Assembly: GCF_044647545.1 (NCBI RefSeq)
Contig: NZ_CP172818.1
DNA: 64,000 bases
Source of the DNA: Escherichia coli
Lineage (GTDB): Bacteria; Pseudomonadota; Gammaproteobacteria; Enterobacterales; Enterobacteriaceae
Reading direction: 5' to 3' (one strand)
Shown here: positions 4,775-21,172 of the stretch, in pieces
How positions within the stretch are numbered: position 1 is the first letter of the stretch
Layout: each line of letters starts with the position of its first letter
The notes under the pieces: model-generated
Seen by the model: the letters and a program-made list of their open reading frames with translations, nothing else
What the model was told of the DNA's origin: nothing
Database searches by the model: none
Translations under genes and position numbers: made by a program

Positions 4775-5764
4775 TTAAACCAGTTCGTTCGGGCAGGTTT
4801 CGCCTTTTTCCAGATTGCTTAAGTTTTGCAGCGTAGTCTGAGAAATACTGGTCAGAGCTTCTGCTGTCAGGAATGCCTGATGCCCGGTAAACAGCACGTT
4901 GTGGCAGGCAGACAGGCGACGGAATACGTCATCCTGAATTACGTCGTTGGATTTATCTTCAAAGAAAAGATCGCGTTCGTTCTCATACACGTCCATACCC
5001 AACGAACCAATTTTCTGATTTTTCAGCGCTTCAATTGCTGCCTGAGAATCAATCAATGCACCGCGACTGGTATTGACGATCATCACGCCATTTTTCATCT
5101 GTTCGAAGGCAGCTTCGTTCAACAGATGATAGTTTTCCGGTGTCAGCGGGCAGTGCAGAGAGATAACGTCTGATTCAGAGAACAGGGTTGGCAGATCGAC
5201 ATACTCCACACCGAGTTCCAGTGCCGCCGCACTTGGATACGGATCGAACGCCAGCAGACGCATACCAAAACCTTTCAGAATGCGCAGCATCGCCACACCG
5301 ATTTTGCCGGTACCGATAACGCCTGCCGTTTTGCCATACATAGTAAAGCCGGTCAGACCTTCCAGAGAGAAGTTGGCGTCACGGGTACGCTGATACGCGC
5401 GGTGAATACGGCGGTTCAGCGTCATCATCATACCGATGGCATGTTCAGCAACGGCTTCTGGATCATAGGCTGGAACACGGACTACTTTCAGCCCCAGTTC
5501 TTTTGCCGCGTCAAGGTCGACGTTATTGAAACCGGCACAGCGCAGGGCGATATATTTAACGCCGTGCTTTTTCAGCTCTTCCAGCACCGGGCGGCTGCCG
5601 TCATCGTTTACGAAAATACATACCGCTTCGCAGCCATTGGCAGTTTTAGCGGTTTTTTCCGTCAGCAGAAAGTCAAAAAATTCCAGCTCAAAGCCAAAGG
5701 ACTCGTTCACCTGTTGCAGGTACTTCTTGTCGTACTGTTTTGTGCTATAAACGGCGAGTTTCAT
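4775..5764 (-). CDS. ldhA: fermentative D-lactate dehydrogenase (NAD-dependent 2-hydroxyacid dehydrogenase), 329 aa
   Basis: 329-aa ORF MKLAVYSTKQYDKKYLQQVNE..., with the NAD-binding GVIGTGKIG motif of D-isomer 2-hydroxyacid dehydrogenases. Confidence 0.95.
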   Translation of the reverse strand: MKLAVYSTKQYDKKYLQQVNESFGFELEFFDFLLTEKTAKTANGCEAVCIFVNDDGSRPVLEELKKHGVKYIALRCAGFNNVDLDAAKELGLKVVRVPAYDPEAVAEHAIGMMMTLNRRIHRAYQRTRDANFSLEGLTGFTMYGKTAGVIGTGKIGVAMLRILKGFGMRLLAFDPYPSAAALELGVEYVDLPTLFSESDVISLHCPLTPENYHLLNEAAFEQMKNGVMIVNTSRGALIDSQAAIEALKNQKIGSLGMDVYENERDLFFEDKSNDVIQDDVFRRLSACHNVLFTGHQAFLTAEALTSISQTTLQNLSNLEKGETCPNELV

Positions 5765-5971
5765 AAGACTTTCTCCAGTGATGTTGAATCACATTTAAGC
5801 TACTAAAAATATTTTACAAAATTTCAAATATAATTGAAAGCTATGGCGATATTGAAAAATTCATCAACAACTATGCTTAGTGTAGGCGCAACCTTCAACT
5901 GAACGGTTAAACATGCCACAATACCCGTATTGAATGCTTAATTTTTCGCTAAATCAGGATATTAACTACCC

Positions 5972-8611
5972 ATGCTGGGTAAATATAAAGCCGTTCTCGC
6001 GCTGTTATTACTGATTATTCTTGTGCCGTTGACGCTGCTGATGACGCTCGGGCTGTGGGTTCCTACGCTGGCGGGCATCTGGCTACCGCTCGGGACACGT
6101 ATTGCATTAGATGAAAGCCCACGCATTACGCGTAAAGGTTTAATCATTCCCGATCTCCGTTATCTGGTGGGAGATTGTCAGCTTGCGCATATCACCAACG
6201 CCAGCCTTTCACATCCCAGCCGCTGGTTATTGAACGTCGGCACGGTAGAACTTGATTCTGCTTGTCTGGCGAAATTGCCGCAGACGGAGCAATCGCCAGC
6301 CGCTCCAAAAACCCTCGCGCAGTGGCAGGCCATGTTGCCTAACACCTGGATCAATATCGATAAACTGATTTTTTCTCCCTGGCAGGAATGGCAGGGAAAA
6401 CTCTCTCTCGCATTAACCTCCGATATCCAGCAACTGCGTTATCAGGGCGAAAAAGTTAAATTTCAAGGCCAGCTGAAAGGGCAACAACTTACAGTCAGCG
6501 AACTGGATGTCGTCGCGTTTGAAAATCAGCCGCCGGTTAAACTGGTGGGGGAATTTACTATGCCGCTCGTGCCGGATGGACTTCCGGTAAGTGGGCATGC
6601 TACTGCGACGTTAAACTTGCCGCAGGAACCGTCACTGGTGGATGCAGAGCTGGACTGGCAGGAAAATAGCGGGCAATTGATCGTGCTGGCACGGGATAAC
6701 GGCGATCCGTTGCTCGATTTGCCGTGGCAAATTACTCGTCAACAATTGACCGTAAGCGATGGTCGCTGGAGCTGGCCGTATGCAGGTTTTCCTTTGAGTG
6801 GCCGACTGGGTGTCAAAGTCGACAACTGGCAGGCAGGGCTCGAGAACGCTCTGGTCAGCGGACGACTGAGTGTGCTGACCCAGGGGCAAGCGGGTAAGGG
6901 CAACGCGGTGCTTAATTTTGGCCCTGGAAAATTAAGCATGGATAACAGCCAGCTGCCTATGCAGCTGACCGGTGAAGCGAAACAGGCGGATCTCATTTTA
7001 TACGCCCGCTTACCTGCGCAGCTAAGCGGAAGTCTGACTGACCCAACGCTGGCCTTTGAGCCAGGCGCGTTATTACGTTCGAAGGGAAGAGTCATCGATT
7101 CGCTGGACATCGATGAAATCCGCTGGCCTTTAGCGGGTGTAAAAGTCACCCAACGTGGTGTTGACGGACGTTTGCAGGCCATTTTGCAGGCGCATGAAAA
7201 TGAACTGGGCGATTTCGTGCTGCATATGGATGGACTGGCGAATGATTTTCTCCCTGACGCTGGCCGCTGGCAGTGGCGCTACTGGGGAAAAGGCAGTTTT
7301 ACACCGATGAATGCCACCTGGGATGTCGCAGGAAAGGGTGAGTGGCATGACAGCACGATTACGCTGACCGATCTCTCCACCGGTTTCGACCAGTTACAAT
7401 ACGGTACGATGACGGTTGAAAAGCCGCGACTAATTCTCGACAAGCCCGTCGTCTGGGTACGTGACGCACAGCATCCCTCCTTTAGCGGCGCGCTGTCACT
7501 GGACGCCGGGCAAACGCTGTTCACTGGCGGCAGTGTGTTACCGCCATCAACCTTAAAATTTAGCGTCGATGGACGCGATCCGACGTATTTCCTCTTTAAA
7601 GGCGATTTACATGCTGGTGAGATTGGCCCGGTTCGGGTAAATGGTCGCTGGGACGGTATTCGTCTGCGCGGTAACGCCTGGTGGCCTAAACAATCACTGA
7701 CCGTATTCCAGCCGCTGGTGCCACCCGACTGGAAGATGAACTTACGCGATGGCGAACTATATGCCCAGGTCGCATTTTCTGCTGCGCCTGAACAAGGATT
7801 CCGCGCGGGAGGGCACGGTGTGTTGAAAGGCGGTAGTGCCTGGATGCCAGATAATCAGGTTAACGGTGTCGATTTTGTCCTGCCTTTCCGTTTTGCCGAT
7901 GGAGCCTGGCATCTGGGGACTCGCGGCCCCGTTACGTTGCGAATTGCCGAAGTGATTAATCTGGTGACAGCGAAAAATATTACGGCTGATTTGCAAGGTC
8001 GTTATCCGTGGACTGAAGAAGAACCATTGCTGTTGACTGATGTTAGCGTTGATGTGTTAGGCGGTAACGTACTGATGAAACAATTACGTATGCCGCAACA
8101 TGACCCGGCGCTGTTGCGGCTGAATAATCTTTCCTCCAGCGAACTGGTTAGCGCCGTCAATCCGAAACAATTCGCCATGTCCGGGGCATTTAGTGGTGCA
8201 TTGCCGTTATGGCTAAACAACGAAAAATGGATAGTGAAAGATGGTTGGCTGGCAAATAGCGGGCCAATGACCTTGCGGCTGGATAAAGACACCGCAGATG
8301 CGGTGGTGAAAGACAATATGACTGCGGGTTCAGCAATTAACTGGTTGCGCTATATGGAAATTAGCCGTTCATCGACAAAAATTAATTTAGATAATCTCGG
8401 TTTATTAACCATGCAGGCCAACATTACAGGTACCAGTCGCGTTGATGGTAAAAGCGGTACGGTAAATCTTAATTACCATCATGAAGAGAATATTTTTACG
8501 CTGTGGCGCAGTTTACGCTTTGGCGATAATCTCCAGGCATGGTTGGAGCAGAACGCACGTCTGCCGGGAAATGACTGTCCGCAAGGAAAAGAGTGTGAGG
8601 AAAAACAATGA
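5972..8611 (+). CDS. ydbH: AsmA-like large inner-membrane-anchored periplasmic protein, 879 aa
   Basis: 879-aa ORF with N-terminal transmembrane anchor; stop overlaps the ynbE start (ATGA), indicating translational coupling. Confidence 0.9.
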   Translation: MLGKYKAVLALLLLIILVPLTLLMTLGLWVPTLAGIWLPLGTRIALDESPRITRKGLIIPDLRYLVGDCQLAHITNASLSHPSRWLLNVGTVELDSACLAKLPQTEQSPAAPKTLAQWQAMLPNTWINIDKLIFSPWQEWQGKLSLALTSDIQQLRYQGEKVKFQGQLKGQQLTVSELDVVAFENQPPVKLVGEFTMPLVPDGLPVSGHATATLNLPQEPSLVDAELDWQENSGQLIVLARDNGDPLLDLPWQITRQQLTVSDGRWSWPYAGFPLSGRLGVKVDNWQAGLENALVSGRLSVLTQGQAGKGNAVLNFGPGKLSMDNSQLPMQLTGEAKQADLILYARLPAQLSGSLTDPTLAFEPGALLRSKGRVIDSLDIDEIRWPLAGVKVTQRGVDGRLQAILQAHENELGDFVLHMDGLANDFLPDAGRWQWRYWGKGSFTPMNATWDVAGKGEWHDSTITLTDLSTGFDQLQYGTMTVEKPRLILDKPVVWVRDAQHPSFSGALSLDAGQTLFTGGSVLPPSTLKFSVDGRDPTYFLFKGDLHAGEIGPVRVNGRWDGIRLRGNAWWPKQSLTVFQPLVPPDWKMNLRDGELYAQVAFSAAPEQGFRAGGHGVLKGGSAWMPDNQVNGVDFVLPFRFADGAWHLGTRGPVTLRIAEVINLVTAKNITADLQGRYPWTEEEPLLLTDVSVDVLGGNVLMKQLRMPQHDPALLRLNNLSSSELVSAVNPKQFAMSGAFSGALPLWLNNEKWIVKDGWLANSGPMTLRLDKDTADAVVKDNMTAGSAINWLRYMEISRSSTKINLDNLGLLTMQANITGTSRVDGKSGTVNLNYHHEENIFTLWRSLRFGDNLQAWLEQNARLPGNDCPQGKECEEKQ

Positions 8612-8793
8612 AAATTTTACTGGCTGCGTTGACGTCATCTTTTATGCTGGTTGGCTGTACGCCTCGCATTGAAGTCGCTGCCCCTAAGGAACCGATCACT
8701 ATCAATATGAACGTTAAAATTGAGCATGAGATCATCATCAAGGCAGACAAAGATGTCGAAGAGCTGCTTGAAACTCGTAGCGATCTTTTCTGA
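8608..8793 (+). CDS. ynbE: small lipoprotein YnbE, 61 aa
   Basis: 61-aa ORF MKILLAALTSSFMLVGC with lipobox; overlaps ydbH stop by 4 bp. Confidence 0.85.
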   Translation: MKILLAALTSSFMLVGCTPRIEVAAPKEPITINMNVKIEHEIIIKADKDVEELLETRSDLF

Positions 8794-8800
8794 GGCGATG

Positions 8801-9127
8801 ATGAAGAAAACATTACTTCTTTGTGCGTTTCTTGTTGGGCTGGTAAGCAGCAATGTAATGGCATTGACTCTGGATGAAGCCAGAACTCAGGGGCGGGTAG
8901 GTGAAACATTTTATGGTTATCTGGTTGCGCTGAAAACAGATGCTGAAACAGAGAAATTAGTAAACGACATTAATGCCGAACGTAAAGCGAGTTACCAACA
9001 ACTGGCAAAGCAAAATAATGTGTCGGTAGATGATATCGCGAAACTCGCCGGGCAAAAGCTCGTAGCTCGGGCCAAACCGGGGGAATATGTACAAGGGATA
9101 AACGGTAAATGGGTGCGAAAATTTTAA
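8801..9127 (+). CDS. ydbL: periplasmic protein YdbL (DUF1318), 108 aa
   Basis: ORF 8720-9127 trimmed to MKKTLLLCAFLVGLVSSNVMA signal peptide start, 8 bp after the ynbE stop; 108 aa. Confidence 0.8.
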   Translation: MKKTLLLCAFLVGLVSSNVMALTLDEARTQGRVGETFYGYLVALKTDAETEKLVNDINAERKASYQQLAKQNNVSVDDIAKLAGQKLVARAKPGEYVQGINGKWVRKF

Positions 9128-9260
9128 TAGCAAAACCGCACTATCGGGATAACGCTACAGGAGAAGGCGATTAATCTATTTTCCGGAAACAAGATGATTA
9201 TTCAAAAACTCCTGTCAAATTGCCTTTCGCCCTGAAAATGAATAGTCAAATATCTGTTTT

Positions 9261-9299
9261 AACTAATTAGCGTTGCTGTACATGCAACGCTAATTAGTT
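9261..9299. repeat. 39-bp hairpin-forming palindrome (16-bp perfect arms, 7-nt loop) at the 3' ends of ydbL and feaR
   Basis: AACTAATTAGCGTTGC-tgtacat-GCAACGCTAATTAGTT read directly; abuts the feaR stop codon (9298-9300); no flanking T-run. Confidence 0.8.
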
Positions 9300-10203
9300 A
9301 GCGGAATTTACGTCGATACTCGCCTGGCGTCATCCCAAAGCGTTGCTTAAATACCGTTGAAAAATGACTCTGGTCGGAAAATCCCCAATGAAAGCCAATG
9401 CCTGCCAGTTTTTCATCATCTGCGGCATGGCGAATCGCATCTGCACAAAAATCGAGACGACGGTTACGGATATATTGCGCGACTACCAAACCTTTATCGG
9501 CAAACATTCGGTACAAACTACGTACTGACATACCTGTCTCTCCGGCTATCCACTCCGGGCGTAATATCTCTTCGCGAATATTATCGTCTATCAACGTAAC
9601 CACTTTTTGAAACTGACGTTCACGACGAGGTTGAACAGATTCCCGCTGATGAAGTACCGGGCGCAGCAGACACACCATCGCCTGTAGCGCAGCTTCACTT
9701 TCTGTTTCAGAAAGTGCCGGATTATTCATGCTCTCCTGTAACAGGCGATGACTGAGTTGCACCATGGGTAAGTCAGCGTCCAGTCTTTCTGCGCAGATAG
9801 GTTTTTGATGGGGAAAATATTGTTCCAGCAGAGTGCGTGGCAAAAGTAATGAAATCTGTTTAGAAGACTCCTGCCAGTAAAGCGAACAGGGGCGTGAGGC
9901 ATCGAGTAACGTAATATCGCCAGCGCCAATCTGCACCTGACGCTCATCCTGCTCCATTATTGCCTGACCACTAAGCTGAAAAACGGTGTAAAACCAGGCA
10001 TCGTCGCTGCCTTTTACTTCCTGCCAGGTGCGGGATAAATTCACCCCGCTGGTTGTCACGGTACTCAGCTTTAGTCCTTTGGCAAAATGCGTGTCCAGTA
10101 CACCCGTGTAACGCTCAGTCAGCAGGCGTCCGGTAAAATTTCCGCATACCTGATTGATTTGGGAAAGCCATTGCTGAAACTCATTATCCACTGCGGGGTT
10201 CAT
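9298..10203 (-). CDS. feaR: AraC/XylS-family transcriptional activator of feaB/tynA, 301 aa
   Basis: 301-aa ORF with C-terminal AraC-type HTH; divergent from feaB. Confidence 0.9.
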   Translation of the reverse strand: MNPAVDNEFQQWLSQINQVCGNFTGRLLTERYTGVLDTHFAKGLKLSTVTTSGVNLSRTWQEVKGSDDAWFYTVFQLSGQAIMEQDERQVQIGAGDITLLDASRPCSLYWQESSKQISLLLPRTLLEQYFPHQKPICAERLDADLPMVQLSHRLLQESMNNPALSETESEAALQAMVCLLRPVLHQRESVQPRRERQFQKVVTLIDDNIREEILRPEWIAGETGMSVRSLYRMFADKGLVVAQYIRNRRLDFCADAIRHAADDEKLAGIGFHWGFSDQSHFSTVFKQRFGMTPGEYRRKFR

Positions 10204-10322
10204 GGCACGTTTTCGCTCTGTGAAATGTATTTTTATTGTTGCATTTGTGTTGCAATAAACGAAGCTAATGAGCCTGACTATAGGAAATAAGTCTTGTCAG
10301 GCATAGAGACATAAGCGGTTAT

Positions 10323-10368
10323 TGTCACGATTTGCGGAGCTTGTCACAGCTGACAAAGCGAATGTCAC
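10323..10368 (+). promoter_or_regulatory. three direct TGTCAC repeats in the feaR-feaB intergenic region (candidate FeaR operator / feaB promoter)
   Basis: TGTCAC at 10323, 10342 and 10363, spaced 19-21 bp, about 70-110 bp upstream of the feaB ATG. Confidence 0.45.
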
Positions 10369-10435
10369 AGCGAAAAAAGTGACTTTTCTTGTCGCTGCGT
10401 ACACTGAAATCACACTGGGTAAATAATAAGGAAAA

Positions 10436-11932
10436 GTGATGACAGAGCCGCATGTAGCAGTATTAAGCCAGGTCCAACAGTTTCTCGATCGTCAACACGG
10501 TCTTTATATTGATGGTCGTCCTGGCCCCGCACAAAGTGAAAAACGGTTGGCGATCTTTGATCCGGCCACCGGGCAAGAAATTGCGTCTACTGCTGATGCC
10601 AACGAAGCGGATGTAGATAACGCAGTCATGTCTGCCTGGCGGGCCTTTGTCTCGCGTCGCTGGGCCGGGCGATTACCCGCAGAGCGTGAACGTATTCTGC
10701 TACGTTTTGCTGATCTGGTGGAGCAGCACAGTGAGGAGCTGGCGCAACTGGAAACCCTGGAGCAAGGCAAGTCAATTGCCATTTCCCGTGCTTTTGAAGT
10801 GGGCTGTACGCTGAACTGGATGCGTTATACCGCCGGGTTAACGACCAAAATCGCGGGTAAAACGCTGGACTTGTCGATTCCCTTACCCCAGGGGGCGCGT
10901 TATCAGGCCTGGACGCGTAAAGAGCCGGTTGGCGTAGTGGCGGGAATTGTGCCATGGAACTTTCCGTTGATGATTGGTATGTGGAAGGTGATGCCAGCAC
11001 TGGCAGCAGGCTGTTCAATCGTGATTAAGCCTTCGGAAACCACGCCACTGACGATGTTGCGCGTGGCGGAACTGGCCAGCGAGGCTGGTATCCCTGATGG
11101 CGTTTTTAATGTCGTCACCGGGTCAGGTGCTGTATGCGGCGCGGCCCTGACGTCACATCCTCATGTTGCGAAAATCAGTTTTACCGGTTCAACCGCGACG
11201 GGAAAAGGTATTGCCAGAACTGCTGCTGATCACTTAACGCGTGTAACGCTGGAACTGGGCGGTAAAAACCCGGCAATTGTATTAAAAGATGCTGATCCGC
11301 AATGGGTTATTGAAGGCTTGATGACCGGAAGCTTCCTGAATCAAGGGCAAGTATGCGCCGCCAGTTCGCGAATTTATATTGAAGCGCCGTTGTTTGACAC
11401 GCTGGTTAGTGGATTTGAGCAGGCGGTAAAATCGTTGCAAGTGGGACCGGGGATGTCACCTGTTGCACAGATTAACCCTTTGGTTTCTCGTGCGCACTGC
11501 GACAAAGTGTGTTCATTCCTCGACGATGCGCAGGCACAGCAAGCAGAGCTGATTCGCGGGTCGAATGGACCACCAGAGGTATTATGTTGCGCCAACGCTA
11601 GTGCGGTAAAATCCCGATGCTAAATTGCGCTTAACTCGTGAAGAGGTGTTTGGTCCGGTGGTAAACCTGGTGCGAGTAAGCGGTGGAAGAGGCGTTACAA
11701 CTGGCAAACGACACGGAATATGGCTTAACTGCCAGTGTCTGGACGCAAAATCTCTCCAGGCTCTGGAATATAGCGATCGCTTACAGGCAGGGACGGTGTG
11801 GGTAAACAGCCATACCTTGATTGACGCTAACTACCGTTTGGTGGGATGAAGCAGTCAGGAACGGGCCGTGATTTTGGCCCCGACTGGCTGGACGGTTGGT
11901 GTGAAACTAAGTCGGTGTGTGTACGGTATTAA
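10436..11932 (+). pseudogene. feaB: phenylacetaldehyde dehydrogenase, frameshifted in its 3' third
   Basis: First ~385 codons intact (ORF 10436-11623, aldehyde dehydrogenase family); expected length 499 aa. Remainder recoverable only in shifted frames (ORF 11625-11849 [18 protein letters not shown]...); original stop context ...KSVCVRY* at 11930-11932. Confidence 0.8.
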
Positions 11933-11953
11933 TATTGGTTCGCTAATTAAGTA

Positions 11954-11979
11954 AAAAACGGCACCTGGTGCCGTTTTTT
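11954..11979. terminator. bidirectional intrinsic terminator between convergent feaB and tynA
   Basis: A6-CGGCACC..GGTGCCG-T6 hairpin flanked by A and T runs. Confidence 0.7.
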
Positions 11980-11991
11980 GTCTGAAAACAA

Positions 11992-14283
11992 TCACTTATC
12001 TTTCTTCAGCGCCCCTAGCGTTGGCGTTTCATAAAGAAGTTCCATGGTTTAAGCAGAGTATGTACCCATTCGGTCGGCATAATCGGCCACTCTTCAGCAC
12101 GGGCCACATGTGTGGTGCCGGTGGGTCATCCAGACAACGGCGTCGGTGTTGTCCAGCGACTCGTTATCTTTACTGTATTGTCCAAGACCGGTGTCATCAG
12201 TAGAACGGTTCAGGATATTTGCCTTCCGGGAAACGCTCGCCAGGATGATAACGCGTTACCCAGAAAGCTGCTTTGTCCATAAAGCTTAAACGATGATAGA
12301 TCCACTCATCCCAGGCGCCACTGGGCACCTTTTGCTACCGGGTGAGTACCGCCTGCATAAGGAATAATTTGATAGGAAACTGGATTGCCCATGCGGTTCT
12401 CTTTGTTGCGGGTTACTCAACAGACGAATCATGCCCCGGATCAAACTACGGCATCCTGTTCATTGCCGATGTTGTACTGATTAACTTGCATCAAGGTACT
12501 GGTGCGTCGGCCACCGGCAGTATTCGGTTTCCACTGGGTCCATCGCCACCAGGCTGTTATTCTCGCCATCTACATAAGGAATCGAGGCAGAAATTATCGA
12601 TCTGTTTGGTGTCAGTACCCACGATACTGTGATCGATAAGCGTGCCGTAGCGCGTGTCATCTTTCGCCGTCTCATCGTGCATGGTTTTCGCTTTAACACC
12701 TTTCACCGCTTCGATGCCCGTAGCACCGGCATCAATGCCAATAGTGCCGTTTTCATGGAAGATCCAGTCAAAATGTAGTCATAGTTACCCACTGTACTGA
12801 TCCAGCGCACCACTGACTCCCAGCATTCAGGTACTGACGTTGGGCTGGCCCATTTCCTGATGCTTATACTCCGGCCCGGCATAACGTTTCAAATACCGCG
12901 ATAGCGCGAGGATCTCCATCGGCACGCCAGTGTAGTCGGCGATGGTTTCATTAAGGAGCACTGCGTTAGACGGGGCATCTTTACCACGGCGAAATTGGTG
13001 AGGTTAGCGTGCCCATACCGTAGTCACCAGAGTCCAGATACGCTTTAAAGTACCAGCCAATATCCAGGATCACCGTAAGGCACAATAATGTCGCCGAGGA
13101 GAACCTTCGTGCATGACTTTGCGTTTGGTGCCGATATTGGTATATAGTCACGGTGGAGATCATAGGCCCGACGCGAGAGTTCATGCTGAGGTGAAAATCC
13201 CAGTTCCGCCAGTGAATAGTATCTCGCCAGTAATGGTGTAATTTTTACCTTCAGGCTCAATGATTTGCATAGGCTTGACTGCCGGAGCAACGCGGTCACG
13301 GCTATCAAATGGGCGTGCGGTCATTCACACGGAACTCCGGACCTTCTTCAATCTTAACGATTTTTTTCTGTTTCTGATCAACGACCGCCACCAGGTTTTC
13401 GATGGGATGTGCCCAGTAGTTCCATCGCCGACAGTCAAGATAGCTGATGACTTTGAGCAACCGGGCATCTTGTTTCAGGCCATCTTTACCATCGAAATAA
13501 CCTACGGTCAGCGGCGTGGTAATCACTTTTTTCGCATCAGTAATACCGCGTTTCTTCACGGCAGCGGCAAATTCTTCACTGTTGTTAATAATGTTCTGCA
13601 CACTGGCGAAATCATCCAGCAACACCATACCCGTGGCGTGTTTAATGGGTTCCAGGAGAGCAGTTTGTTGTTTTGCAGATCCACCACCGCTTCGATGATA
13701 TGTTTGCCGTCGAGCATAATGACGTCGGCTTTGCGCGGCTGGTCAACCGGTTTGTTTTCCAGCGCAAACGCCCAGACAGCTTCTTTATCTGGCGGTAGCA
13801 GGAGATCTCAGTAAAACAGGGTATTGGGTTTGAAGTCCCGCGGAAGCTTTAACAATTTCAACGGCCTGTTTAATTTCGTACCACAGTTCACGCATTAAGT
13901 GGGTGAGGGCGCTTTTATTACCTGAAAGGTTTGATCCAGACCGGACTGGAAAACATCGTTAATAAAGGTGTCGCAAAACCCAGGCCTTATTGTCTTTCAT
14001 ACGCTCCCGGCACTTGCAGTGCCAAGGTAGCCATTAACAATTGCTGTTTTGCGCACCAGGCTTCACTTTCACGTACGCGCCATCTTTAATCAGGGTAAAG
14101 ATCTGGGCGTAGTCGTCCCACTGCACATCGGCACCAAATTCTTTAAGCGTTTCATCCATTGGCACCATATGCGCTTCACCACCGTGGGCAAATACCGGCG
14201 CTTGCCAGGCGAAACTTAAGGCGACTGCCAACGCCAGGGTTGTTTTACGGGCAGAATCCGGAGAAAGAGGGCTTCCAGTTATT
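11992..14283 (-). pseudogene. tynA: copper/topaquinone amine oxidase (tyramine oxidase), heavily frameshifted
   Basis: Minus-strand fragments 14034-14315, 13305-13628, 13045-13308, 12981-13184 and 12481-12699 translate to successive pieces of TynA (e.g. ARKTTLALAVALSFAWQAPVFAHGGEAHMVPMD; MVLLDDFASVQNIINNSEEFAAAVKKRGITDAKK) separated by frame changes; stop ...LKKDK* at 11992-11994; start codon region also altered. Expected 757 aa. Confidence 0.75.
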
Positions 14284-14485
14284 AACCTCGTCAGATGTTG
14301 TGTTCTTGTTAGCAACCGCGCTCTGTGGGCGGTTTAGTCAGGTTCACATTATGAGTACTGATGCAAAGAAATCCTGCACCTCAGAGTTATTTGGCAGGTG
14401 TGCCCACTTTTTCATACAGTGGGTGCCCTGAAAATCAATGTACACATCATGCATAATGTGACAACGTCACAAAAGTTAGTGAAAT

Positions 14486-14516
14486 GAAAAAGGGCAACTG
14501 TTCGGGCCGTTGCCCT
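14486..14516 (-). terminator. intrinsic terminator downstream of paaZ
   Basis: GGGCAAC..GTTGCCC hairpin followed on the minus strand by a T5 run. Confidence 0.6.
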
Positions 14517-14527
14517 TCATTCACCGA

Positions 14528-16563
14528 TTAATCGACAAAATCACCATATCCTGGCCACCAGCGTCAGAATTGAATACAGCGCCACCGGGGTTTGATGCTG
14601 ATTGAATACCTCTACCGCCCATTCCACCACCTGTTGGTTTTTCTTCTGCGCTACGCTGTTTTTTCAGCGTCTTGCGCTTACAGGTGAGACGCACCTGGAT
14701 GGTATCGCCTGGCTTTACGGGTTCGATAAGCGCAAGTTTTCCAGCCCATAATTAGCAATGACCGGACCGACACCGGCATCGACAAACAGACCCGCAGAGC
14801 CGCAGAAAAAGCACAAAATACCCATGCACCACACGCTCACCGAAAATAGATTCGGCAGCAGCAGAATATTATCCATATGCGCATAGAAATAATCGCCGCT
14901 GAGGCAAGCAAAGTTAACAATATCGGCCTCTGTCATTGTGCGGCGGGAGTGGCAGGTATCCGCCTGGTTGTAGCTCCTCAAAATATTTGCGGAACGGATG
15001 AATACGATCTTCTTCGACTTTCGCACCACGCACCCACTGTTTACTGATAGCTGCAAGCATCGTCGGACTACCCTGAACAGCGGTTCGCTGCGTGTGATCC
15101 TTCACCCGCTCGTAAACCACCTAATTCTTCACCGCCTCCTGCGCGACCAGGCCCACCATGTAACAGTTGTGGCAGTCGGAGAGCCATGCCGGTGGATTCT
15201 TTTGCCGATTCCTCATTGAGGATCTGAATTCGCCCATGCGTACGTGCCGCGTCGGTAATAAACTGACGCGCAATTTGCGGATCAGCCGTCACCAGCGTTC
15301 CGCAAGGCTACCGCCGCCTGCACAAGCCAGTTGCAGAGCATGTCGCTGGTTTTGTGCTGGCATCAGCGTTGCGACAGGGCCAAAGGCTTCTGTTGCATGT
15401 ACCGCCGGTGTTTCATCCGGCTGCGGACAGTACAATAAGGTTGGCGGGAAAGAGCACCCGCAGCAGATAAATCCGCCTGACCACCGAGGCGAATCTCGCA
15501 TCCTGCAGCCAGCAATATGTTCACTTTTTCCTGCACATCGGCACGCTGCTCAGCATTTACCAGTGCGCCCATATTCACGCCTTCCTGAGCAGGATCACCG
15601 ACCACGACTTTCTGTAATCGCGCAACCAGGACGATTCACTGACAGCATTAACCAATGCCTGCGGCGCGATAATCCGCCGGATTGCCGTACATTTTTGCCC
15701 GGCTTTTGTGGTCATCTCACGCACAACTTCACGAATAAACAGCGCAAACTCCGAGTTAAATGCGGGTAACATCTTCGCCCAGTACGCAGCAGTTCAGGGA
15801 ATCAGCTTCCATAGTGAAGGGGATAGATTTGGCGACGATATTTGGCTGAACTCGCGGCGTCTCTGCAGGTCGCCGCTGACCCGTGAAAGTCACCACATCC
15901 TGGCTGTCCAGATAATCCAAAAGGTCGCCCGCACTACCGCAGATCAGACTAATTGCGCCTTCGGGAACAAGACCACTATCGACAATTGATTTCACCATCG
16001 CCTGAGTACGTTGGGCCGTCGCGGTAGCTGGTTTGATGATGGCTGGCATTCCGCCCAGCCACGTTGGTGCCAGCTTCCGGCGTTTTGCCACAGGGGAAGT
16101 TAAAGGCGTTAATATGCACTGCCACGCCTGAGCTTTGAGGTCAGTACATGGCGCGCGGCAAATCCACCTTCTTTCGATAAGGGGATCAATTCATCTTCCG
16201 GCCACAGCGTATCGTCGGCGGCTGCCCGGCTACCGAGGCTGGCGTAAGTAAATAACGTCCCAATGCCACCTTCAAATCAACCGAACTGTTGCCGCGTTGC
16301 GCCTGTTTGCGCAGAAAGACATAGAAGCGCTCTTTTTTCACTCAGCAGATGTTTAGCGACCGCTTTAAGCATCGCCGCACGTTCGATAAAGGTCATCACG
16401 CAGAAGCAGCCTTTTCAATGGCAAACTGCAACGGGCCACCGCCATATAGACCTTTCACTGGTCACTTCCCATAACGCCTCGCCGCTGATAGCGTGGTGAA
16501 TCAAACGGCTACCACCCCGCCAGACTGCCAGGTACCGGATAAGAAACTGGCTAACTGCTGCAT
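14528..16563 (-). pseudogene. paaZ: bifunctional oxepin-CoA hydrolase / aldehyde dehydrogenase, multiply frameshifted
   Basis: ATG intact at 16561-16563 and stop ...GDFVD* at 14528-14530, but interior split into fragments (15756-16091, 15575-15772, 15363-15605, 15068-15292, 14715-15056) that each match PaaZ segments; span 2036 nt versus 2046 expected (681 aa). Confidence 0.75.
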
Positions 16564-16792
16564 CGCTACTCTCCAGATGTTTCACATTTATGTTGCTAAT
16601 AGTTAAATTGCGAATCATAAAAAGCAAGGGTTCTTTTAACGAAATGTTAACTATGCAAATATGTATCACAACTGCGGAAAACATTAATGCACTGATAAAT
16701 AATGATTTATAAAAAATCGGGTGCGAAATCCGTCACAGTTCAAGCATACAAAATTTGTGATTTTAGTTAACCATTGTGTAACTTTCATAAAC

Positions 16793-16834
16793 AATGTGAT
16801 TCGTGTTTTTAATTAATTCGCGAACTTGGAATCG
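16793..16834. promoter_or_regulatory. PaaX-type operator half-site in the paaZ-paaA divergent promoter region
   Basis: AATGTGATTCGTGTT at 16793-16807 fits the PaaX box consensus WWTRTGATTCGYGWT as I remember it; an imperfect inverted partner GAATCG lies 26 nt downstream. Confidence 0.45.
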
Positions 16835-16847
16835 TAAAGGTAATAAC

Positions 16848-17773
16848 ATAACCCAAGAAGAACGCTTTGAGCAACGGATAGCCCAGGAAACGGCTATCGA
16901 GCCGCAGGACTGGATGCCAATAAGAAAGCACTGATCCGCCAGATTGGGCAGCATGCACACTGCAAATTGTGGTATGTTCCTGAAGGTAACTGGATCACTG
17001 GCGCACGACCTTTTGCAGCATAAAGCCATTCTGTTCGCCAAAGTCCAGGATGAAGCCGGTCATCGTCTGTATCTCTATAGCGCCGCCGAAACACTGGGCT
17101 GCACAGAGAAGACATCTACCAAAAAATGCTCAAACAACGATAAATATTCCTCCATCTTTAATTATCCGACATTGGTCTCCAGGGGCTGATATCGGCGTTA
17201 TCGGCTGGCTGGTGGAGTAGCAGCGATCGTCAATCAGGTGGCGTTATGTCGCACTTCTTATGGCCCGTATGCCAGAGCAATGGTGAAGATCTGCAAAGAA
17301 GAGAGTTTTTCACCAGCGTCAGGGGTTTGAAGCCTGCATGGCACTGGCGCAGGCGGCGAAGGACGCTCAAAAGCAGATGTTGCAAGACGCCATTAACCGT
17401 TTCTGGTGGCCAGCCTTAATGATGTTCGGGCCAAACGATGATAACTCGCCAAACAGCGCCAGAAGTACCGCCTGGAAAATCAAACGTTTCACCAACGACG
17501 AACTCGCCAGCGTTTCGTGGATAACACCATTCCACAGGTTGAAATGCTCGGTATGACCGTTCCTGACCCGGATCTGCATTTTGACACTGAAAGCGGTCAC
17601 TACCGCTTTGGTGGAAATCAACTGGCAGGAGTTTAACGAAGTAATTAACGGTCGCCGGAATTTGTAATCAGGAGAGGCTCGACGCCAAACGTAAAGCCTG
17701 GGAAGAAGGTACCTGGGTACGGGAAGCAGCGCTGGCCCATGCACAAAAACAACTTGCCCGTAAGGTCGCATAA
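16848..17773 (+). pseudogene. paaA: ring 1,2-phenylacetyl-CoA epoxidase subunit A, start codon lost and frameshifted
   Basis: Conserved N-terminus reads I-TQEERFEQRIAQETAIEPQDW with ATA in place of ATG at 16848-16850; later pieces (e.g. 17338-17556 MALAQAAKDAQKQMLQDAINRFWWPALMMFGPNDDNSPNSARS) in other frames; stop at 17771-17773. Expected 309 aa. Confidence 0.75.
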
Positions 17774-17784
17774 GGAGATTCAAA

Positions 17785-18069
17785 ATGAGTAATGTTTATT
17801 GGCCGTTATACGAAGTTTACCCGTTCGTGGCAAACAGGGCTTATCACACCGCCATGTTGGCAGTTTTTACATGCTGCCGATGAGCGGATGGCACTGAAAA
17901 TGCCGGTGATTGTTACACCGTCGTAGCGAAGGATGTTCAATTTGGGTGGTGAAGGCGAGTGAAATTGTTGCCTCGCAACCGGAAGAACGCGGTGAATTTT
18001 TTGATCCGGCTGAAGCAAGGTCTATCGCCATCCAACGTTTTACACCATCCCTGATGGCATTCAACATGA
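17785..18069 (+). pseudogene. paaB: epoxidase subunit B, frameshifted
   Basis: ATG at 17785 with MSNVYWPLYEV N-terminus; body recovered in a shifted frame (17910-18149 ...SEGCSIWVVKASEIVASQPEERGEFFDPAE...). Expected 95 aa; 3' end approximate. Confidence 0.65.
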
Positions 18070-18077
18070 GGTCGGAA

Positions 18078-18820
18078 ATGAATCAGTTAACGGCTTACAC
18101 CTTCGCCTGGGCGATAACTGCCTGGTGCTTCCAGCGGTTGGGTGAATAGTGCGGTCATGCACCGGAACTGGAAATCGATCTCGCACTGGCAAATATTGGA
18201 CTCGATTTATTAGGCCAGGCACGCAACTTCTTATCGTATGCCGCTGAATTAGCGGGAGAAGGCGATGAAGATACCCTGGCCTTCACCCCAACAAGCACCA
18301 GTTCAGCAACTTATTGTTGGTTGAACAGCCAAACGGCAATTTTGCCGACAACCGTCGCCAGTATTTCATCGATGCATGGCATGTGGCGCTCTTTACCATT
18401 CTGATGGAGAGCCGTGATCCGCGACTGGCGGCGATTTCTGCAAAGCGATTAAAGAAGCGCGTTATAGCCTGCGTTTTATTCGTGGCTGGCTGGAGCAACT
18501 GGGCAATGGTACTGACGTATACGGGCGAAAGAATGCCAGCAGGCCATCAACAAGTTGTGGCGTTTTACCGCCGAACTGTAGATGCCGACGAGATTGATAT
18601 TGCACTGAGTGAAGAGGGTATTGCGGTTGATCCACGCGCTTTTACGCGCAGCGTGGGAAGCCGAAGTTTTTGCCGGGATCAACGAAGCCACATTCAACGT
18701 ACCGCAGAGCAGGCGTATCGCACTGGCGGTAAAAAAGGACTGCATACCGAACACCTTGGACCCATGCTGGCAGAAATGCAGTTATTGTTTGAGCGTGTCT
18801 TGCCCGGTCAGCAATGGTAA
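18078..18820 (+). pseudogene. paaC: epoxidase subunit C, frameshifted
   Basis: Start MNQLTAYT at 18078; C-terminal portion in ORF 18314-18820 ends ...LPGQQW*; span 743 nt, not a multiple of 3, versus 747 expected (248 aa). Confidence 0.7.
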
Positions 18821-18834
18821 CAGAGGAGGTGGGT

Positions 18835-19325
18835 ATGCAACGTATCAGCCACCATTCCGCCGCCACAGGTTCATCCAGATATGGGCGCTACTGGGCGCGA
18901 TCCCGGACCGGAGATCCCGGTGCTGACCATTACCGATTTAGGCATGGTGCGTAATGTGACACAGATGGAAAGAATGGGTGATCGGCTTTACGCCGACTTA
19001 TTCCGGTTGTCCGGCAACGGAACGTTGATTGGCGCGATACGTGAGGCAATGACAACCCACGGGTTTACCCGTACGGTTGTGCTGCAACTCGACCCGGCAT
19101 GGACCACCGACTGGATGACCCCCGATGCCCGTGAGCGTCTGCGACGGTATGGCATTAGCCCGCCCGGCCGGAACAGTTGCCGGCCCATTTGCCGCCAGAA
19201 GTACGTTGCCCGCGCTGCGCCAGCGTCCATCCACACTTATCAGTGAATTTGGTTCCACGGCCTGCAAAGCATTGTACCGCTGCGATAGTTGCCACAAACC
19301 TTTCGATTATTTCAAATGTATTTGA
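18835..19325 (+). pseudogene. paaD: epoxidase subunit D, frameshifted
   Basis: ATG at 18835; fragments 18881-19246 (IPVLTITDLGMVRNVTQM...) and 19125-19325 (...CDSCHKPFDYFKCI*) in different frames. Confidence 0.7.
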
Positions 19326-19332
19326 GGATGCC

Positions 19333-20397
19333 ATGACAACGTTTCATTCCTTAACAGTGGCAAAAGTGGGCCCGGAAACCCGTGATGCGGTGACCATTAC
19401 CTTTGCATGCAGCCTTTGCAGGAGGCGTATCACTTTCGCCCCGGTCAACATTTGACCTTAAAAGCCAGTCTTGATGGTGAAGAATTAGCCATTGTTCTCC
19501 ATTTGCCGCAGCTACCTGCCTGGCGAAATTAGTGTGGCGGTGAAAGCCATTGAAGGCGGACGTTTCTCCCGCTATGCCCGCGAACACATCCGCCAGGGTA
19601 TGACGCTGGAGGTCATGGTGCCGCAGGGGCATTTCGGCTATCAGCCACAGGCCGAACACCAGGGCCGCTATCTGGCTATTGCAGCAGGATCAGGTATTAC
19701 GCCAATGCTGGCGATTATCGCCACCACTTTCAAACCGAGCCTGAAAGTCAGTTCACCCTGATCTACGGTAACCGTACCAGCCAGAGCATGATGTTTCGCC
19801 AGGCACTGGCAGACCTGAAAGACAAATATCCTCAGCGTTTACAGTTGTTGTGCATTTTCAGTCAGGAAACCCTCGACAGCGATCTGCTTCACGGGCGTAT
19901 TGACGGTGAAAAATTACGTGGCTTGGGGCCTCGCTCATTGATTTTTCGTCTTTATGATGAGGCGTTTGCTTTGTGGTCCGGCGGCGATGATGGATGAGAC
20001 GGAAGCCGCCTTAAAAGCACTGGGAATGCCAGATAAAACCATTCATCTGGAGCGGTTTAATACGCCTGGCACGCGCGTCAAAGCGTCGCGTTAACGTGCA
20101 AAGTGACGGACAAAAGTGACTGTACGTCAGGATCGGCGGGATCGGGAAATCGTGCTTAATGCCGACGATGAAAGCATTCTCGATGCGGCATTGCGCCAGG
20201 GGGCTGATCTGCCCTATGCCTGCAAAGGCGGCGTCTGTGCGACCTGCAAATGCAAAGTGCTGCGTGGCGAAGTGGCGATGGAAACCAATTACAGTCTGGA
20301 ACCGGATGAACTGGCCGCAGGTTATGTGTTGAGTTGCCAGGCACTGCCGCTGACCAGCGATGTGGTGGTTGACTTTGACGCGAAGGGGATGGCATCA
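19333..20397 (+). pseudogene. paaE: epoxidase reductase subunit E (ferredoxin-NADPH reductase), frameshifted and stop codon lost
   Basis: Start MTTFHSLTVAK at 19333; fragments 19492-19761 and 20116-20406 (2Fe-2S motif CKGGVCATCKCK) in different frames; the expected overlapping TGA stop reads TCA at 20395-20397. Confidence 0.7.
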
Positions 20398-21172
20398 GCG
20401 AACTGATCGTCAGCCGTCAGCAACAGGTGCTTGCTGCTGACCCTTAACCGTCCCGCCGCACGTAATGCGCTGAGAATAATGCCCTTCTGACGCAACTGGT
20501 AAATGAACTGGAAGCTGCGGCTACCGATAGCAGCATTTCGGTCTGTGTGATTACCGGTAATGCACGCTTTTTTGCCGCTGGGGCCGATCTCAACGAAATG
20601 GCAGAAAAAGATCTCGCGGCCACCTTAAACGATACACGTCCGCAGCTATGGGCGCGATTGCAGGCCTTTAATAAACCACTTATCGCAGCCGTCAATGGTT
20701 ACGCGCTTGGGGCGGGTTGCGAACTGGCATTGTTGTGCGATGTGGTGGTTGCCGGAGAGAACGCGCGTTTTGCGTTGCTTTTTACAGGAAATCACTCTCG
20801 GCATCATGCCAGGCGCAGGAGGAACGCAACGTTTAATCCGTAGTGTCGGTAAATCGTTAGCCAGCAAAAATGGTGCTGAGCGGAGAAAGTATCACCGCTC
20901 AGCAAGCACAGCAGGCCGGGCTGGTTAGCAACATCTTCCCCAGCGATTTAACCCTCGAATACGCCTTACAGCTGGCATCGAAAATGGCACGTCACTCGCC
21001 GCTGGCCTTACAAGCGGCAAAGCAAGCGCTGCGCCAGTCGCAGGAAGTGGCTTTGCAAGCCGGACTTGCCCAGGAGCGACAGTTATTCACCTTGCTGGCG
21101 GCAACAGAAGATCGTCATGAAGGCATCTCCGCTTTCTTACAAAAACGCACGCCCGACTTTAAAGGACGCTAA
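20394..21172 (+). pseudogene. paaF: 2,3-dehydroadipyl-CoA hydratase (enoyl-CoA hydratase), start codon lost and frameshifted in the 5' two-thirds
   Basis: N-terminus reads I-SELIVSRQQ with ATC in place of ATG at 20394-20396; frame breaks near 20775 and 20850; last 100 codons (20870-21172) intact, ending ...RTPDFKGR*. Expected 255 aa. Confidence 0.75.

What the first reader, a model, noticed from the sequence alone, without database searches (positions are those of the whole stretch)
5972..9127. ydbH-ynbE-ydbL: translationally coupled AsmA-like protein with two small envelope partners
The ydbH stop overlaps the ynbE start (ATGA) and ydbL begins 8 bp after the ynbE stop, implying stoichiometric co-expression of a large AsmA-like membrane-anchored periplasmic protein (879 aa), a 61-aa lipoprotein and a 108-aa periplasmic protein. 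AsmA-like proteins are implicated in phospholipid transport to the outer membrane; the small partners are plausible docking or chaperone components.
Basis: partly seen in the sequence, partly recalled or inferred. Interest (0 to 1): 0.45.

Follow-up and report, generated by a model that had tools for sequence, protein, structure and literature searches.

The report
Known YdbH-YnbE-YdbL envelope bridge operon

Summary
ydbH and ynbE overlap in ATGA. A 7-nt spacer precedes ydbL, and the ydbL Shine-Dalgarno (SD) sequence GAGG overlaps the ynbE stop codon.

The locus is core E. coli chromosome, present in 5417 of 5426 complete genomes. All three products match their named families: NF007971/PF11739, PF13617 and PF07027. 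YdbL matches PDB 28oj.

- tamB/yhdP/ydbH synthetic lethality (mBio 2021).
- The YdbH-YnbE bridge formed by beta-strand augmentation, with YdbL acting like a chaperone (PNAS 2024).
- The YdbL crystal structure and its binding to the YnbE C-terminal helix (bioRxiv 2026).
- Direct experimental proof of ydbH/ynbE translational coupling (Nat Commun 2019).

My comparative check adds that the three-gene order is kept in distant relatives. There YnbE stays about 50% identical, while YdbH similarity is only about 21-26% and confined to its C-terminus. Junction spacing ranges from -4 to +101 nt.

One caveat: "stoichiometric" overstates the case. YnbE multimerises, the stoichiometry is unknown, and what matters is the YdbL:YnbE ratio.

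Verdict: already known, low interest.

The parts
5834..5860 (+). Putative sigma-70 promoter of the operon, TTGAAA-15 nt-AAAAAT, in the divergent ldhA-ydbH spacer
   Evidence: The motif Shimada et al. 2014 (PMC3946193) assigned to 'ydbH--ydbL' from RpoD genomic SELEX is present verbatim in the window. It is a prediction inside a SELEX fragment, not a mapped transcription start. My consensus scan did not call it.
5956..5959 (+). Weak Shine-Dalgarno (AGGA) for ydbH, 12 nt from the ATG
   Evidence: Best anti-SD duplex is only -4.1 kcal/mol and the spacing is long. This is consistent with low expression, which is my inference.
5972..8611 (+). ydbH: 879-aa inner-membrane-anchored AsmA-like / repeating beta-groove protein
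   Evidence: NCBIfam NF007971 equivalog at 1399.6 bits against a cutoff of 824, covering residues 1-878. Pfam PF11739 YdbH-like at E = 2e-291. The N-terminal hydrophobic segment spans about residues 8-26, KD 2.95. There are 5 aa differences from K-12.
8596..8601 (+). Shine-Dalgarno TGAGGA for ynbE, inside the 3' end of ydbH
   Evidence: -6.2 kcal/mol for the scored segment UGUGAGGAA (8594-8602), which ends 5 nt before the ATG; GAGG itself (8597-8600) ends 7 nt before it. Huber et al. 2019 found the SD strictly essential for reinitiation at this junction.
8608..8611 (+). ATGA stop/start overlap between ydbH and ynbE (termination-reinitiation site)
   Evidence: Seen in the sequence. Strong translational coupling was shown experimentally on the K-12 junction (PMC6728339; PMC10666635). 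The junction fragment differs from K-12 at one base, away from the SD and ATGA.
8608..8793 (+). ynbE: 61-aa outer-membrane lipoprotein (45 aa once mature)
   Evidence: Pfam PF13617 at E = 3.7e-16. Lipobox LVGC with Cys17 and Thr18 at +2. The alternating strand I30-T-I-N-M-N-V-K-I38 and the C-terminal helix are as described in PMC11126948. The protein is identical to K-12 YnbE.
8792..8795 (+). Shine-Dalgarno GAGG for ydbL, overlapping the ynbE TGA stop (8791-8793)
   Evidence: -5.6 kcal/mol for the scored segment UUCUGAGGC (8788-8796), which ends 4 nt before the ATG at 8801; GAGG itself ends 5 nt before it. The arrangement suits reinitiation, but coupling here is inferred and has not been tested.
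8801..9127 (+). ydbL: 108-aa periplasmic DUF1318 protein, chaperone-like modulator of YnbE (alternative start at 8798 gives 109 aa)
   Evidence: Pfam PF07027 at E = 2.4e-31. PDB 28oj 'Probable chaperone-like protein YdbL' matches residues 22-108 with one difference, A55N. The signal peptide ends at VMA/LT after A21.
9260..9300 (.). Perfect 17-bp hairpin between the convergent ydbL and feaR genes; probable transcript-end or terminator structure
   Evidence: The fold of 9120-9310 gives -53.3 kcal/mol, z = -4.95, and 0 of 200 shuffles fold as well. K-12 and the window differ by a compensatory G-C to A-T pair in the stem. There is no U-tract on either strand and the terminator scan did not call it, so the function is inferred. 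Its 3' arm covers the feaR stop codon.

Best explanation
This is the E. coli ydbH-ynbE-ydbL operon. It encodes one of three redundant AsmA-like intermembrane bridges; the others are TamB and YhdP.

YdbH is anchored in the inner membrane by an N-terminal helix. It extends a roughly 180-angstrom hydrophobic beta-groove into the periplasm, which is too short to reach the outer membrane on its own.

YnbE is a 45-residue mature lipoprotein anchored in the outer membrane. [quoted passage not shown] One or several copies extend the groove and tether it to the outer membrane.

YdbL is a soluble periplasmic protein that binds the C-terminal helix of YnbE. This restrains runaway, amyloid-like YnbE multimerisation so that YnbE is available for YdbH. 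Too much YdbL titrates YnbE and is toxic when the cell depends on this bridge.

The gene layout serves that ratio control. There is a single transcript, ynbE translation depends strictly on ribosomes terminating at the ydbH stop (ATGA overlap plus an upstream SD), and ydbL follows 7 nt later with its SD laid over the ynbE stop.

Shown by published experiment: synthetic lethality, the YdbH-YnbE crosslinks, YnbE multimerisation, the YdbL-YnbE interaction and the YdbL structure, and the ydbH-to-ynbE coupling. Inferred: that phospholipids actually move along the groove, the direction of transport, the number of YnbE copies in the bridge, the ynbE-to-ydbL coupling, and the promoter and terminator assignments.
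For: - **Coordinates and signals:**
- **Identity of the locus:** it is 100% identical to several E. coli chromosomes, is present in 5417 of 5426 complete genomes, and is annotated ydbH/ynbE/ydbL.
- **Family matches:** NF007971 equivalog, PF11739, PF13617, PF07027, and the YdbL structure 28oj.
- **No internal signals:** there is no + strand terminator-like site inside the operon, and promoter-like hits are at chance level.
- **Literature:** PMC8593681 shows that tamB, yhdP and ydbH are synthetically lethal. PMC11126948 shows that YnbE, but not YdbL, is essential without TamB and YhdP, and reports the crosslinks, the proline disruptions and the chaperone model. bioRxiv 10.64898/2026.03.16.712125 reports the YdbL structure, the interface with the YnbE helix and the DegP result. 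PMC6728339 and PMC10666635 measured the coupling. PMC12447247 shows that P. aeruginosa YdbH also depends on YnbE. PMC3112155 reports that a ynbE knockout is thermosensitive and rescued by Mg2+.
- **My comparative check:** all 9 loci of YdbL homologues at about 33-47% identity whose contigs reach upstream carry a YnbE-like or small-lipoprotein ORF directly upstream (7 are confirmed as YnbE-like by Pfam or BLAST). A YdbH-like gene lies upstream in all three loci where the contig reaches it uninterrupted (L003, L004, L007). YnbE stays 47-56% identical, while YdbH similarity is 21-26% and limited to the C-terminal 140-215 residues. This is what one would expect if the docking interface is the constrained part.
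Against: - I found no direct biochemical demonstration of lipid transfer by YdbH-YnbE. [quoted passage not shown]
- A bridge with a single YnbE is still predicted to be too short, about 180 versus about 250 angstroms. The P. aeruginosa study raises the possibility of additional outer-membrane partners.
- Huber et al. explain the lack of de novo initiation at ynbE by local mRNA structure. My fold of the same fragment was not more stable than shuffled sequence (z = +1.48, and 192 of 200 shuffles fold at least as well), so that step of the coupling mechanism is not supported by my calculation.
- Junction spacing is not conserved in distant relatives (-4 to +79 nt for ydbH-ynbE, -4 to +101 nt for ynbE-ydbL). 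Tight coupling is therefore not a universal requirement of the system.
Confidence: 0.9

Rival explanations
1. YdbH-YnbE is an envelope tether, or a conduit for a cargo other than bulk phospholipid (for example lipoproteins or outer-membrane protein assembly). On this reading the lipid-homeostasis phenotypes are indirect.
For: Biochemical evidence of lipid transport by YdbH is lacking. Other AsmA-like proteins have been linked to non-lipid cargo: TAM to outer-membrane protein insertion, and GspN to lipoprotein surface transport (titles and abstracts).
Against: YdbH is redundant with TamB and YhdP specifically for outer-membrane lipid homeostasis (PMC8593681). The non-polar face of the YnbE strand continues a hydrophobic groove. 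A 2025 preprint (10.1101/2025.03.12.642747) reports that lipids traverse the groove of the paralogue TamB; I saw only its title and abstract.
Confidence: 0.07
2. YdbL is a stable structural subunit of the finished bridge, bound at the YdbH C-terminus, and not only a transient chaperone of YnbE.
For: AlphaFold-Multimer and MultiFold2 both place YdbL on the YdbH C-terminus together with YnbE. Substitutions W104A and K107A, at the predicted YdbH-YdbL interface, impair YdbL function, and the authors state that function is not solely dependent on the YnbE interaction. ydbL immediately follows ynbE in all 9 informative distant loci.
Against: YdbL is dispensable in a tamB yhdP background, whereas YdbH and YnbE are essential. 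Excess YdbL is lethal and reduces YnbE multimers, which fits titration better than a subunit role. Whether YdbL contacts the assembled complex is stated to be unknown.
Confidence: 0.2
3. The ATGA overlap is only genome compaction. On this reading ynbE and ydbL are translated independently from their own Shine-Dalgarno sites and the layout has no regulatory meaning.
For: Such overlaps are very common (PMC6728339 abstract). Both downstream genes have good SD sequences. The mRNA around the junction is not predicted to be unusually structured. Spacing varies widely among distant relatives.
Against: A premature stop in the upstream reading frame made ynbE reporter translation extremely low or undetectable, and moving the stop away lowered reinitiation. 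This excludes independent initiation for ydbH-ynbE. For ynbE-ydbL the rival remains open.
Confidence: 0.03

Closest known systems
E. coli K-12 YdbH-YnbE-YdbL system (b1381-b1383; Kumar, Davis & Ruiz, PNAS 2024)
   Same: This is the same locus. Gene order, lengths, ATGA overlap, 7-nt spacer and neighbouring genes (ldhA upstream and divergent, feaR downstream and convergent) are all identical. The YnbE protein is identical, YdbL differs by 1 aa and YdbH by 5 aa.
   Different: Only strain-level polymorphism: 56 nt differences in ydbH, 1 in ynbE and 4 in ydbL. There is also a compensatory base-pair change in the downstream hairpin.
TamB-TamA (TAM) and YhdP, the two redundant AsmA-like bridges of E. 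coli
   Same: All are inner-membrane-anchored repeating beta-groove proteins. The three are collectively essential for outer-membrane lipid homeostasis (PMC8593681).
   Different: TamB docks on an Omp85 beta-barrel (TamA). YhdP is thought to be long enough to reach the outer membrane by itself. YdbH is shorter and is completed by a 45-residue lipoprotein through strand augmentation, with a dedicated periplasmic modulator.
CsgC-CsgA (curli) chaperone-amyloid pair
   Same: The authors' own analogy: a small periplasmic protein prevents premature runaway beta-strand polymerisation of a partner.
   Different: I have no evidence of homology. YdbL is a helical DUF1318 protein that binds the C-terminal helix of YnbE, and its closest structural match is the handle region of ClpP. 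The YnbE oligomer is part of a membrane bridge, not a secreted fibre.
Termination-reinitiation coupled gene pairs (for example hyfH-hyfI, astD-astB, menD-menH)
   Same: A 4-nt ATGA overlap with the SD inside the upstream gene. The ydbH/ynbE junction was one of the five E. coli pairs tested and was among the most tightly coupled.
   Different: At ydbH/ynbE the SD was strictly essential, whereas removing the SD reduced reinitiation by 60-90% in three pairs and had no effect at bioBF, which was not coupled.

Membership tests
YdbH family (NCBIfam NF007971 equivalog; Pfam PF11739, AsmA-like) | Full-length match to the family profile above the curated cutoff | tested here: met
   1399.6 bits against a cutoff of 824, residues 1-878 on model positions 1-874 of 875. 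PF11739 at E = 2.2e-291, residues 14-862.
YdbH family (NCBIfam NF007971 equivalog; Pfam PF11739, AsmA-like) | Single N-terminal transmembrane anchor followed by a long periplasmic domain | tested here: met
   The highest Kyte-Doolittle 19-residue window is at residues 8-26 (2.95), and all three top-scoring windows start at residues 7-10. The topology itself was not tested here.
YdbH family (NCBIfam NF007971 equivalog; Pfam PF11739, AsmA-like) | Continuous hydrophobic beta-groove (repeating beta-groove fold) | not tested
   I ran no structure prediction. There is no solved YdbH structure in the PDB. The fold comes from published AlphaFold models.
YnbE-like lipoprotein (Pfam PF13617) | Profile match plus a lipobox with an invariant Cys and an outer-membrane sorting residue at +2 | tested here: met
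   PF13617 at E = 3.7e-16. Lipobox LVGC with Cys17 and Thr at +2, not Asp.
YnbE-like lipoprotein (Pfam PF13617) | Amphipathic beta-strand (alternating non-polar and polar residues) followed by a C-terminal helix | tested here: met
   I30-T-I-N-M-N-V-K-I38 is read directly from the sequence. The motif PITINxNxKIxHEI...DxxL is conserved at 47-56% identity in distant loci. Folding into a strand on YdbH is published, not tested here.
YdbL / DUF1318 (Pfam PF07027) | Profile match, Sec signal peptide, identity to the solved structure | tested here: met
   PF07027 at E = 2.4e-31. PDB 28oj matches residues 22-108 with one substitution. The predicted cleavage after A21 coincides with the start of the crystallised chain.
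YdbH-YnbE-YdbL intermembrane bridge system | Three genes adjacent, same strand, in the order ydbH-ynbE-ydbL | tested here: met
   Seen in the window and in K-12. In distant metagenome loci the full three-gene order is seen in L003, L004 and L007, probably also in L009, where N-run gaps break the ydbH region. L002, L005, L008, L010, L011 and L012 show the ynbE-ydbL pair, but their contigs are too short to reach ydbH or, in L011/L012, the upstream protein is unassigned.
YdbH-YnbE-YdbL intermembrane bridge system | Physical YdbH-YnbE and YnbE-YdbL interaction; synthetic lethality of ydbH or ynbE with tamB and yhdP | not testable with these tools
   Published for K-12 (PMC11126948, PMC8593681, bioRxiv 2026). 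The window proteins are identical or nearly identical to those of K-12.
Termination-reinitiation (TeRe) coupled gene pair | Stop/start overlap or a very short distance, with an SD upstream inside the preceding gene | tested here: met
   ATGA at 8608-8611 and TGAGGA at 8596-8601. For ynbE-ydbL there is a 7-nt spacer with GAGG over the stop codon.
Termination-reinitiation (TeRe) coupled gene pair | Downstream translation depends on upstream translation reaching the junction | not testable with these tools
   Shown by reporter assays for ydbH/ynbE. Not reported for ynbE/ydbL.
Termination-reinitiation (TeRe) coupled gene pair | Local mRNA structure that blocks de novo initiation at the downstream start (proposed by Huber et al.) | tested here: not met
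   The fold of window 8509-8640 gives -27.5 kcal/mol against a shuffle mean of -32.5 (z = +1.48). The SD and AUG are mostly unpaired in the minimum-free-energy structure. This weakens the proposed blocking mechanism but not the measured coupling.

The most novel reading that the evidence does not exclude
The most novel reading still open is that junction architecture acts as an evolutionary dial for the YdbH:YnbE:YdbL synthesis ratio. On this reading, tight termination-reinitiation in E. coli (-4 and +7 nt) versus free-standing genes in other lineages (+79 and +101 nt) would reflect different solutions to keeping an amyloid-prone lipoprotein in check.

A related point is a divergent variant of the module (loci L011/L012). 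It has a tandem double-DUF1318 YdbL and a shortened 73-aa YnbE-like lipoprotein. The upstream partner matches no YdbH profile, and all three genes are joined by 4-nt overlaps.

Neither idea concerns anything unusual in the window itself.
Probability: 0.15. Interest if true: 0.3.

Novelty: already known. Interest (0 to 1): 0.08.

Why it matters
How phospholipids reach the Gram-negative outer membrane was a long-standing open question, and the YdbH-YnbE-YdbL bridge is one of its three redundant answers and a possible drug target. That importance belongs to published work from 2019 to 2026, and this window adds only a strain-level copy of the locus. What the scan gains is confirmation that a tool-free reading of the raw sequence recovered the correct biology. 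Genuinely open questions remain: the YnbE copy number in the bridge, direct lipid-transfer evidence, the direction of transport, a possible extra outer-membrane partner, and whether ynbE-ydbL is translationally coupled.

Tried and rejected
- **Broad species survey.** I ran no further search on a single-protein query, because the finding is already known. Instead I used eight exact-protein context look-ups.
- **RNA families.** An Rfam search of 5600-9500 gave only two sub-threshold chance hits, a eukaryotic miRNA and a scaRNA. There is no known RNA element here.
- **Promoter and terminator scans.** Hit counts were at chance level, and the scans called neither the published promoter nor the 9260-9300 hairpin.
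- **Antisense ORFs.** Those inside ydbH/ynbE (8496-8909, 6739-7182 and 8002-8316 on the minus strand) have no NCBIfam match. I treat them as chance ORFs.
- **mRNA occlusion of the ynbE start.** My fold does not support it.
- **Complex structure prediction.** I considered predicting a fused YdbH C-terminus/YnbE chain. I did not run it, because a paired alignment deep enough would have cost two large database searches to reproduce a published AlphaFold-Multimer result.
- **Upstream protein in L011/L012.** It has no Pfam YdbH match, and its match to a 4-sequence YdbH profile is insignificant, so it is left unassigned.
Full report
**1. Observation.** The ORF list and raw sequence confirm the coordinates.
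- ydbH runs 5972-8611 (ATG to TGA, 879 aa).
- ynbE runs 8608-8793 (61 aa). Its ATG and the ydbH TGA share the ATGA at 8608-8611.
- ydbL runs 8801-9127 (108 aa).
- The ynbE-ydbL spacer is 7 nt. A second in-frame ATG at 8798 would give 109 aa. NCBI's PGAP annotation pipeline uses either start in different records.
- The GAGG at 8792-8795 overlaps the ynbE stop codon. It lies 5 nt from 8801 and only 2 nt from 8798, which favours the 108-aa start.
- ynbE has a good Shine-Dalgarno (SD) sequence, TGAGGA at 8596-8601, inside ydbH. ydbH itself has only a weak AGGA 12 nt upstream of its start.

**2. Identity.**
- The 3.6-kb segment is 100% identical to several E. coli chromosomes and is present in 5417 of 5426 complete E. 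coli genomes. It is annotated ydbH / ynbE / ydbL, and the gene tables agree.
- Against K-12 MG1655, YnbE is identical, YdbL differs by A55N and YdbH by five residues.
- YdbH matches the NCBIfam equivalog NF007971 at 1399.6 bits (cutoff 824) and Pfam PF11739 over its whole length.
- YnbE matches PF13617 and YdbL matches PF07027/DUF1318.
- The PDB holds a YdbL structure, 28oj, named 'Probable chaperone-like protein YdbL'. It covers residues 22-108. There is no solved YdbH structure.
- Read from the sequence, YdbH has one N-terminal hydrophobic anchor at about residues 8-26.
- YnbE has the lipobox LVGC (Cys17) with Thr at +2. Under the established Lol sorting rule this predicts an outer-membrane location.
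- YdbL has a signal peptide ending VMA/LT after A21, exactly where the crystallised chain begins.

**3. Surroundings and both strands.**
- ldhA lies upstream and divergent (4775-5764, minus strand). feaR lies downstream and convergent (9298-10203, minus strand).
- The promoter motif TTGAAA-15-AAAAAT was assigned to 'ydbH--ydbL' by RpoD genomic SELEX (PMC3946193). It is present at 5834-5860.
- There is no terminator-like site on the + strand inside the operon. Promoter-like hits are at the level expected by chance.
- Downstream, a perfect 17-bp hairpin at 9260-9300 abuts the feaR stop codon. The fold of 9120-9310 has z = -4.95.
- K-12 and the window differ in that stem by a compensatory G-C to A-T change. 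The hairpin lacks a U-tract on either strand, so its role as a terminator is an inference.
- Rfam finds nothing real here. Antisense ORFs have no family match.

**4. What it does: published evidence.**
- YdbH is predicted to be too short (about 180 angstroms) to cross the periplasm.
- YnbE, but not YdbL, is essential when TamB and YhdP are absent.
- YnbE crosslinks to the YdbH C-terminal domain in vivo and multimerises. Prolines placed in its I30-I38 strand abolish function.
- Without YdbL, YdbH levels fall and YnbE multimers rise, while excess YdbL is lethal in a yhdP tamB mutant (PMC11126948).
- A 2026 preprint solves YdbL at 2.12 angstroms and maps its binding to the YnbE C-terminal helix. 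It also shows that YnbE protects YdbL from DegP in vitro.
- The dependence of YdbH on YnbE also holds in P. aeruginosa (PMC12447247).
- A ynbE knockout is thermosensitive at 47 C and is rescued by Mg2+ (PMC3112155).

**5. Translational coupling.**
- The ydbH/ynbE junction was one of five native E. coli overlaps tested with reporters.
- A premature stop upstream made ynbE reporter translation extremely low or undetectable. The SD was strictly essential (PMC6728339).
- Moving the stop away from the junction reduced reinitiation (PMC10666635).
- The tested fragment differs from the window at a single base, away from the SD and the ATGA. The 'translationally coupled' claim is therefore established for the first junction.
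- The authors' explanation for the lack of independent initiation is occluding mRNA structure. My fold does not reproduce it (z = +1.48).
- Coupling at ynbE-ydbL is plausible from the SD-over-stop layout, but I found no report of it being tested.

**6. Comparative check (my own).**
- A search of 1.84 billion representative proteins found 1265 YdbL relatives at E-value 0.001 or better.
- I looked up the genomic context of eight relatives at about 33-47% identity. Nine loci have sequence upstream of ydbL, and all nine carry a small ORF there. Seven are confirmed as YnbE-like by Pfam or BLAST (L002-L004, L007-L010).
- The other two are less certain. In L005 the ORF is cut by the contig end and was not checked. 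L011 carries a divergent 73-aa lipoprotein with no Pfam or BLAST match (its duplicate, L012, is not counted separately).
- A YdbH-like gene precedes the lipoprotein in all three loci where the contig reaches it uninterrupted (L003, L004, L007). L009 carries fragments of one, broken by runs of N.
- Junction gaps are -4, 2, 9 and 79 nt for ydbH-ynbE, and -4, -1, 7, 9, 9, 37, 83 and 101 nt for ynbE-ydbL (both lists include the window's own -4 and +7).
- YnbE remains 47-56% identical to the E. coli protein. YdbH similarity drops to 21-26% and is confined to the C-terminal 140-215 residues.
- This pattern fits the published model, in which the YdbH C-terminus, the YnbE strand and helix, and YdbL form the constrained interface. 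It also shows that the exact overlap is a lineage-specific feature, not a defining one.

**7. Judgement.** The only overstatement is 'stoichiometric': YnbE multimerises, the stoichiometry of the complex is unknown, and what is known to matter is the YdbL:YnbE ratio. The feature is already known, so interest is low.

**8. Seen in passing.**
- Window 11575-20866 (the 3' part of feaB, tynA, paaZ and paaA-E) carries 155 gap openings and about 270 mismatches relative to a normal E. coli, while its flanks are clean. Nearly all long ORFs there are broken. This looks like an error-rich patch of sequence, not natural decay.
- The strains that are 100% identical across ydbH-ydbL have instead a deletion joining feaR to paaX.

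Noticed in passing
window 11575-20866: Relative to a normal E. coli (BS-04, L014), this 9.3-kb stretch (the 3' part of feaB, tynA, paaZ and paaA-E) has 155 gap openings, 223 indel columns (118 deletions and 105 insertions) and about 270 mismatches. The flanks 9100-11574 and beyond 20900 are nearly clean. Nearly all long ORFs in the stretch are broken: feaB ends at 395 aa where BS-04 annotates a 1500-nt gene. The best complete-genome match over 9300-21300 is 96.2%, against 100% for the ydbH region. The indel-to-substitution ratio looks like uncorrected sequencing error in an assembly patch, not natural pseudogene decay.
   Followed up: partly
L001 6527-6886 and L013 10027-10386 (window equivalent: downstream of 9298): The strains that are 100% identical to the window across ydbH-ydbL (CFSAN061771 and FDAARGOS_497) carry a deletion that fuses a feaR remnant to a paaX remnant. 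This removes feaB, tynA and most of the paa cluster. The window keeps a full feaR.
   Followed up: no
window 9260-9300: A perfect 17-bp hairpin lies between the convergent ydbL and feaR genes, and its 3' arm covers the feaR stop codon. K-12 and the window differ by a compensatory G-C to A-T pair in the stem. There is no U-tract on either strand, so it is not a canonical intrinsic terminator.
   Followed up: partly
L011 3-1485 and L012 1-1282: A variant of the module has a 239-aa YdbL with two tandem DUF1318 domains. It is preceded by a divergent 73-aa lipoprotein (lipobox LLASC, a shortened YnbE-like motif, no Pfam hit) and by an upstream protein with no YdbH Pfam match. All three genes are joined by 4-nt ATGA overlaps.
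   Followed up: partly
proteins P0001, P0003, P0006, P0007: A few single-contig gene calls of 155-173 aa carry both PF13617 and PF07027, so they look like YnbE-YdbL fusions. The two genes are in different reading frames in the window, so a fusion would need a frameshift in or near the 7-nt spacer. Sequencing or assembly error is the likely cause.
   Followed up: no
window 8509-8640: The mRNA around the ydbH/ynbE overlap is not predicted to be more structured than shuffled sequence (z = +1.48). This is at odds with the published suggestion that local structure blocks independent initiation at ynbE.
   Followed up: partly
summary (E. coli genomes): Five of the 5419 matches to the ydbH-ydbL segment lie on records labelled as plasmids, not chromosomes.
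   Followed up: no
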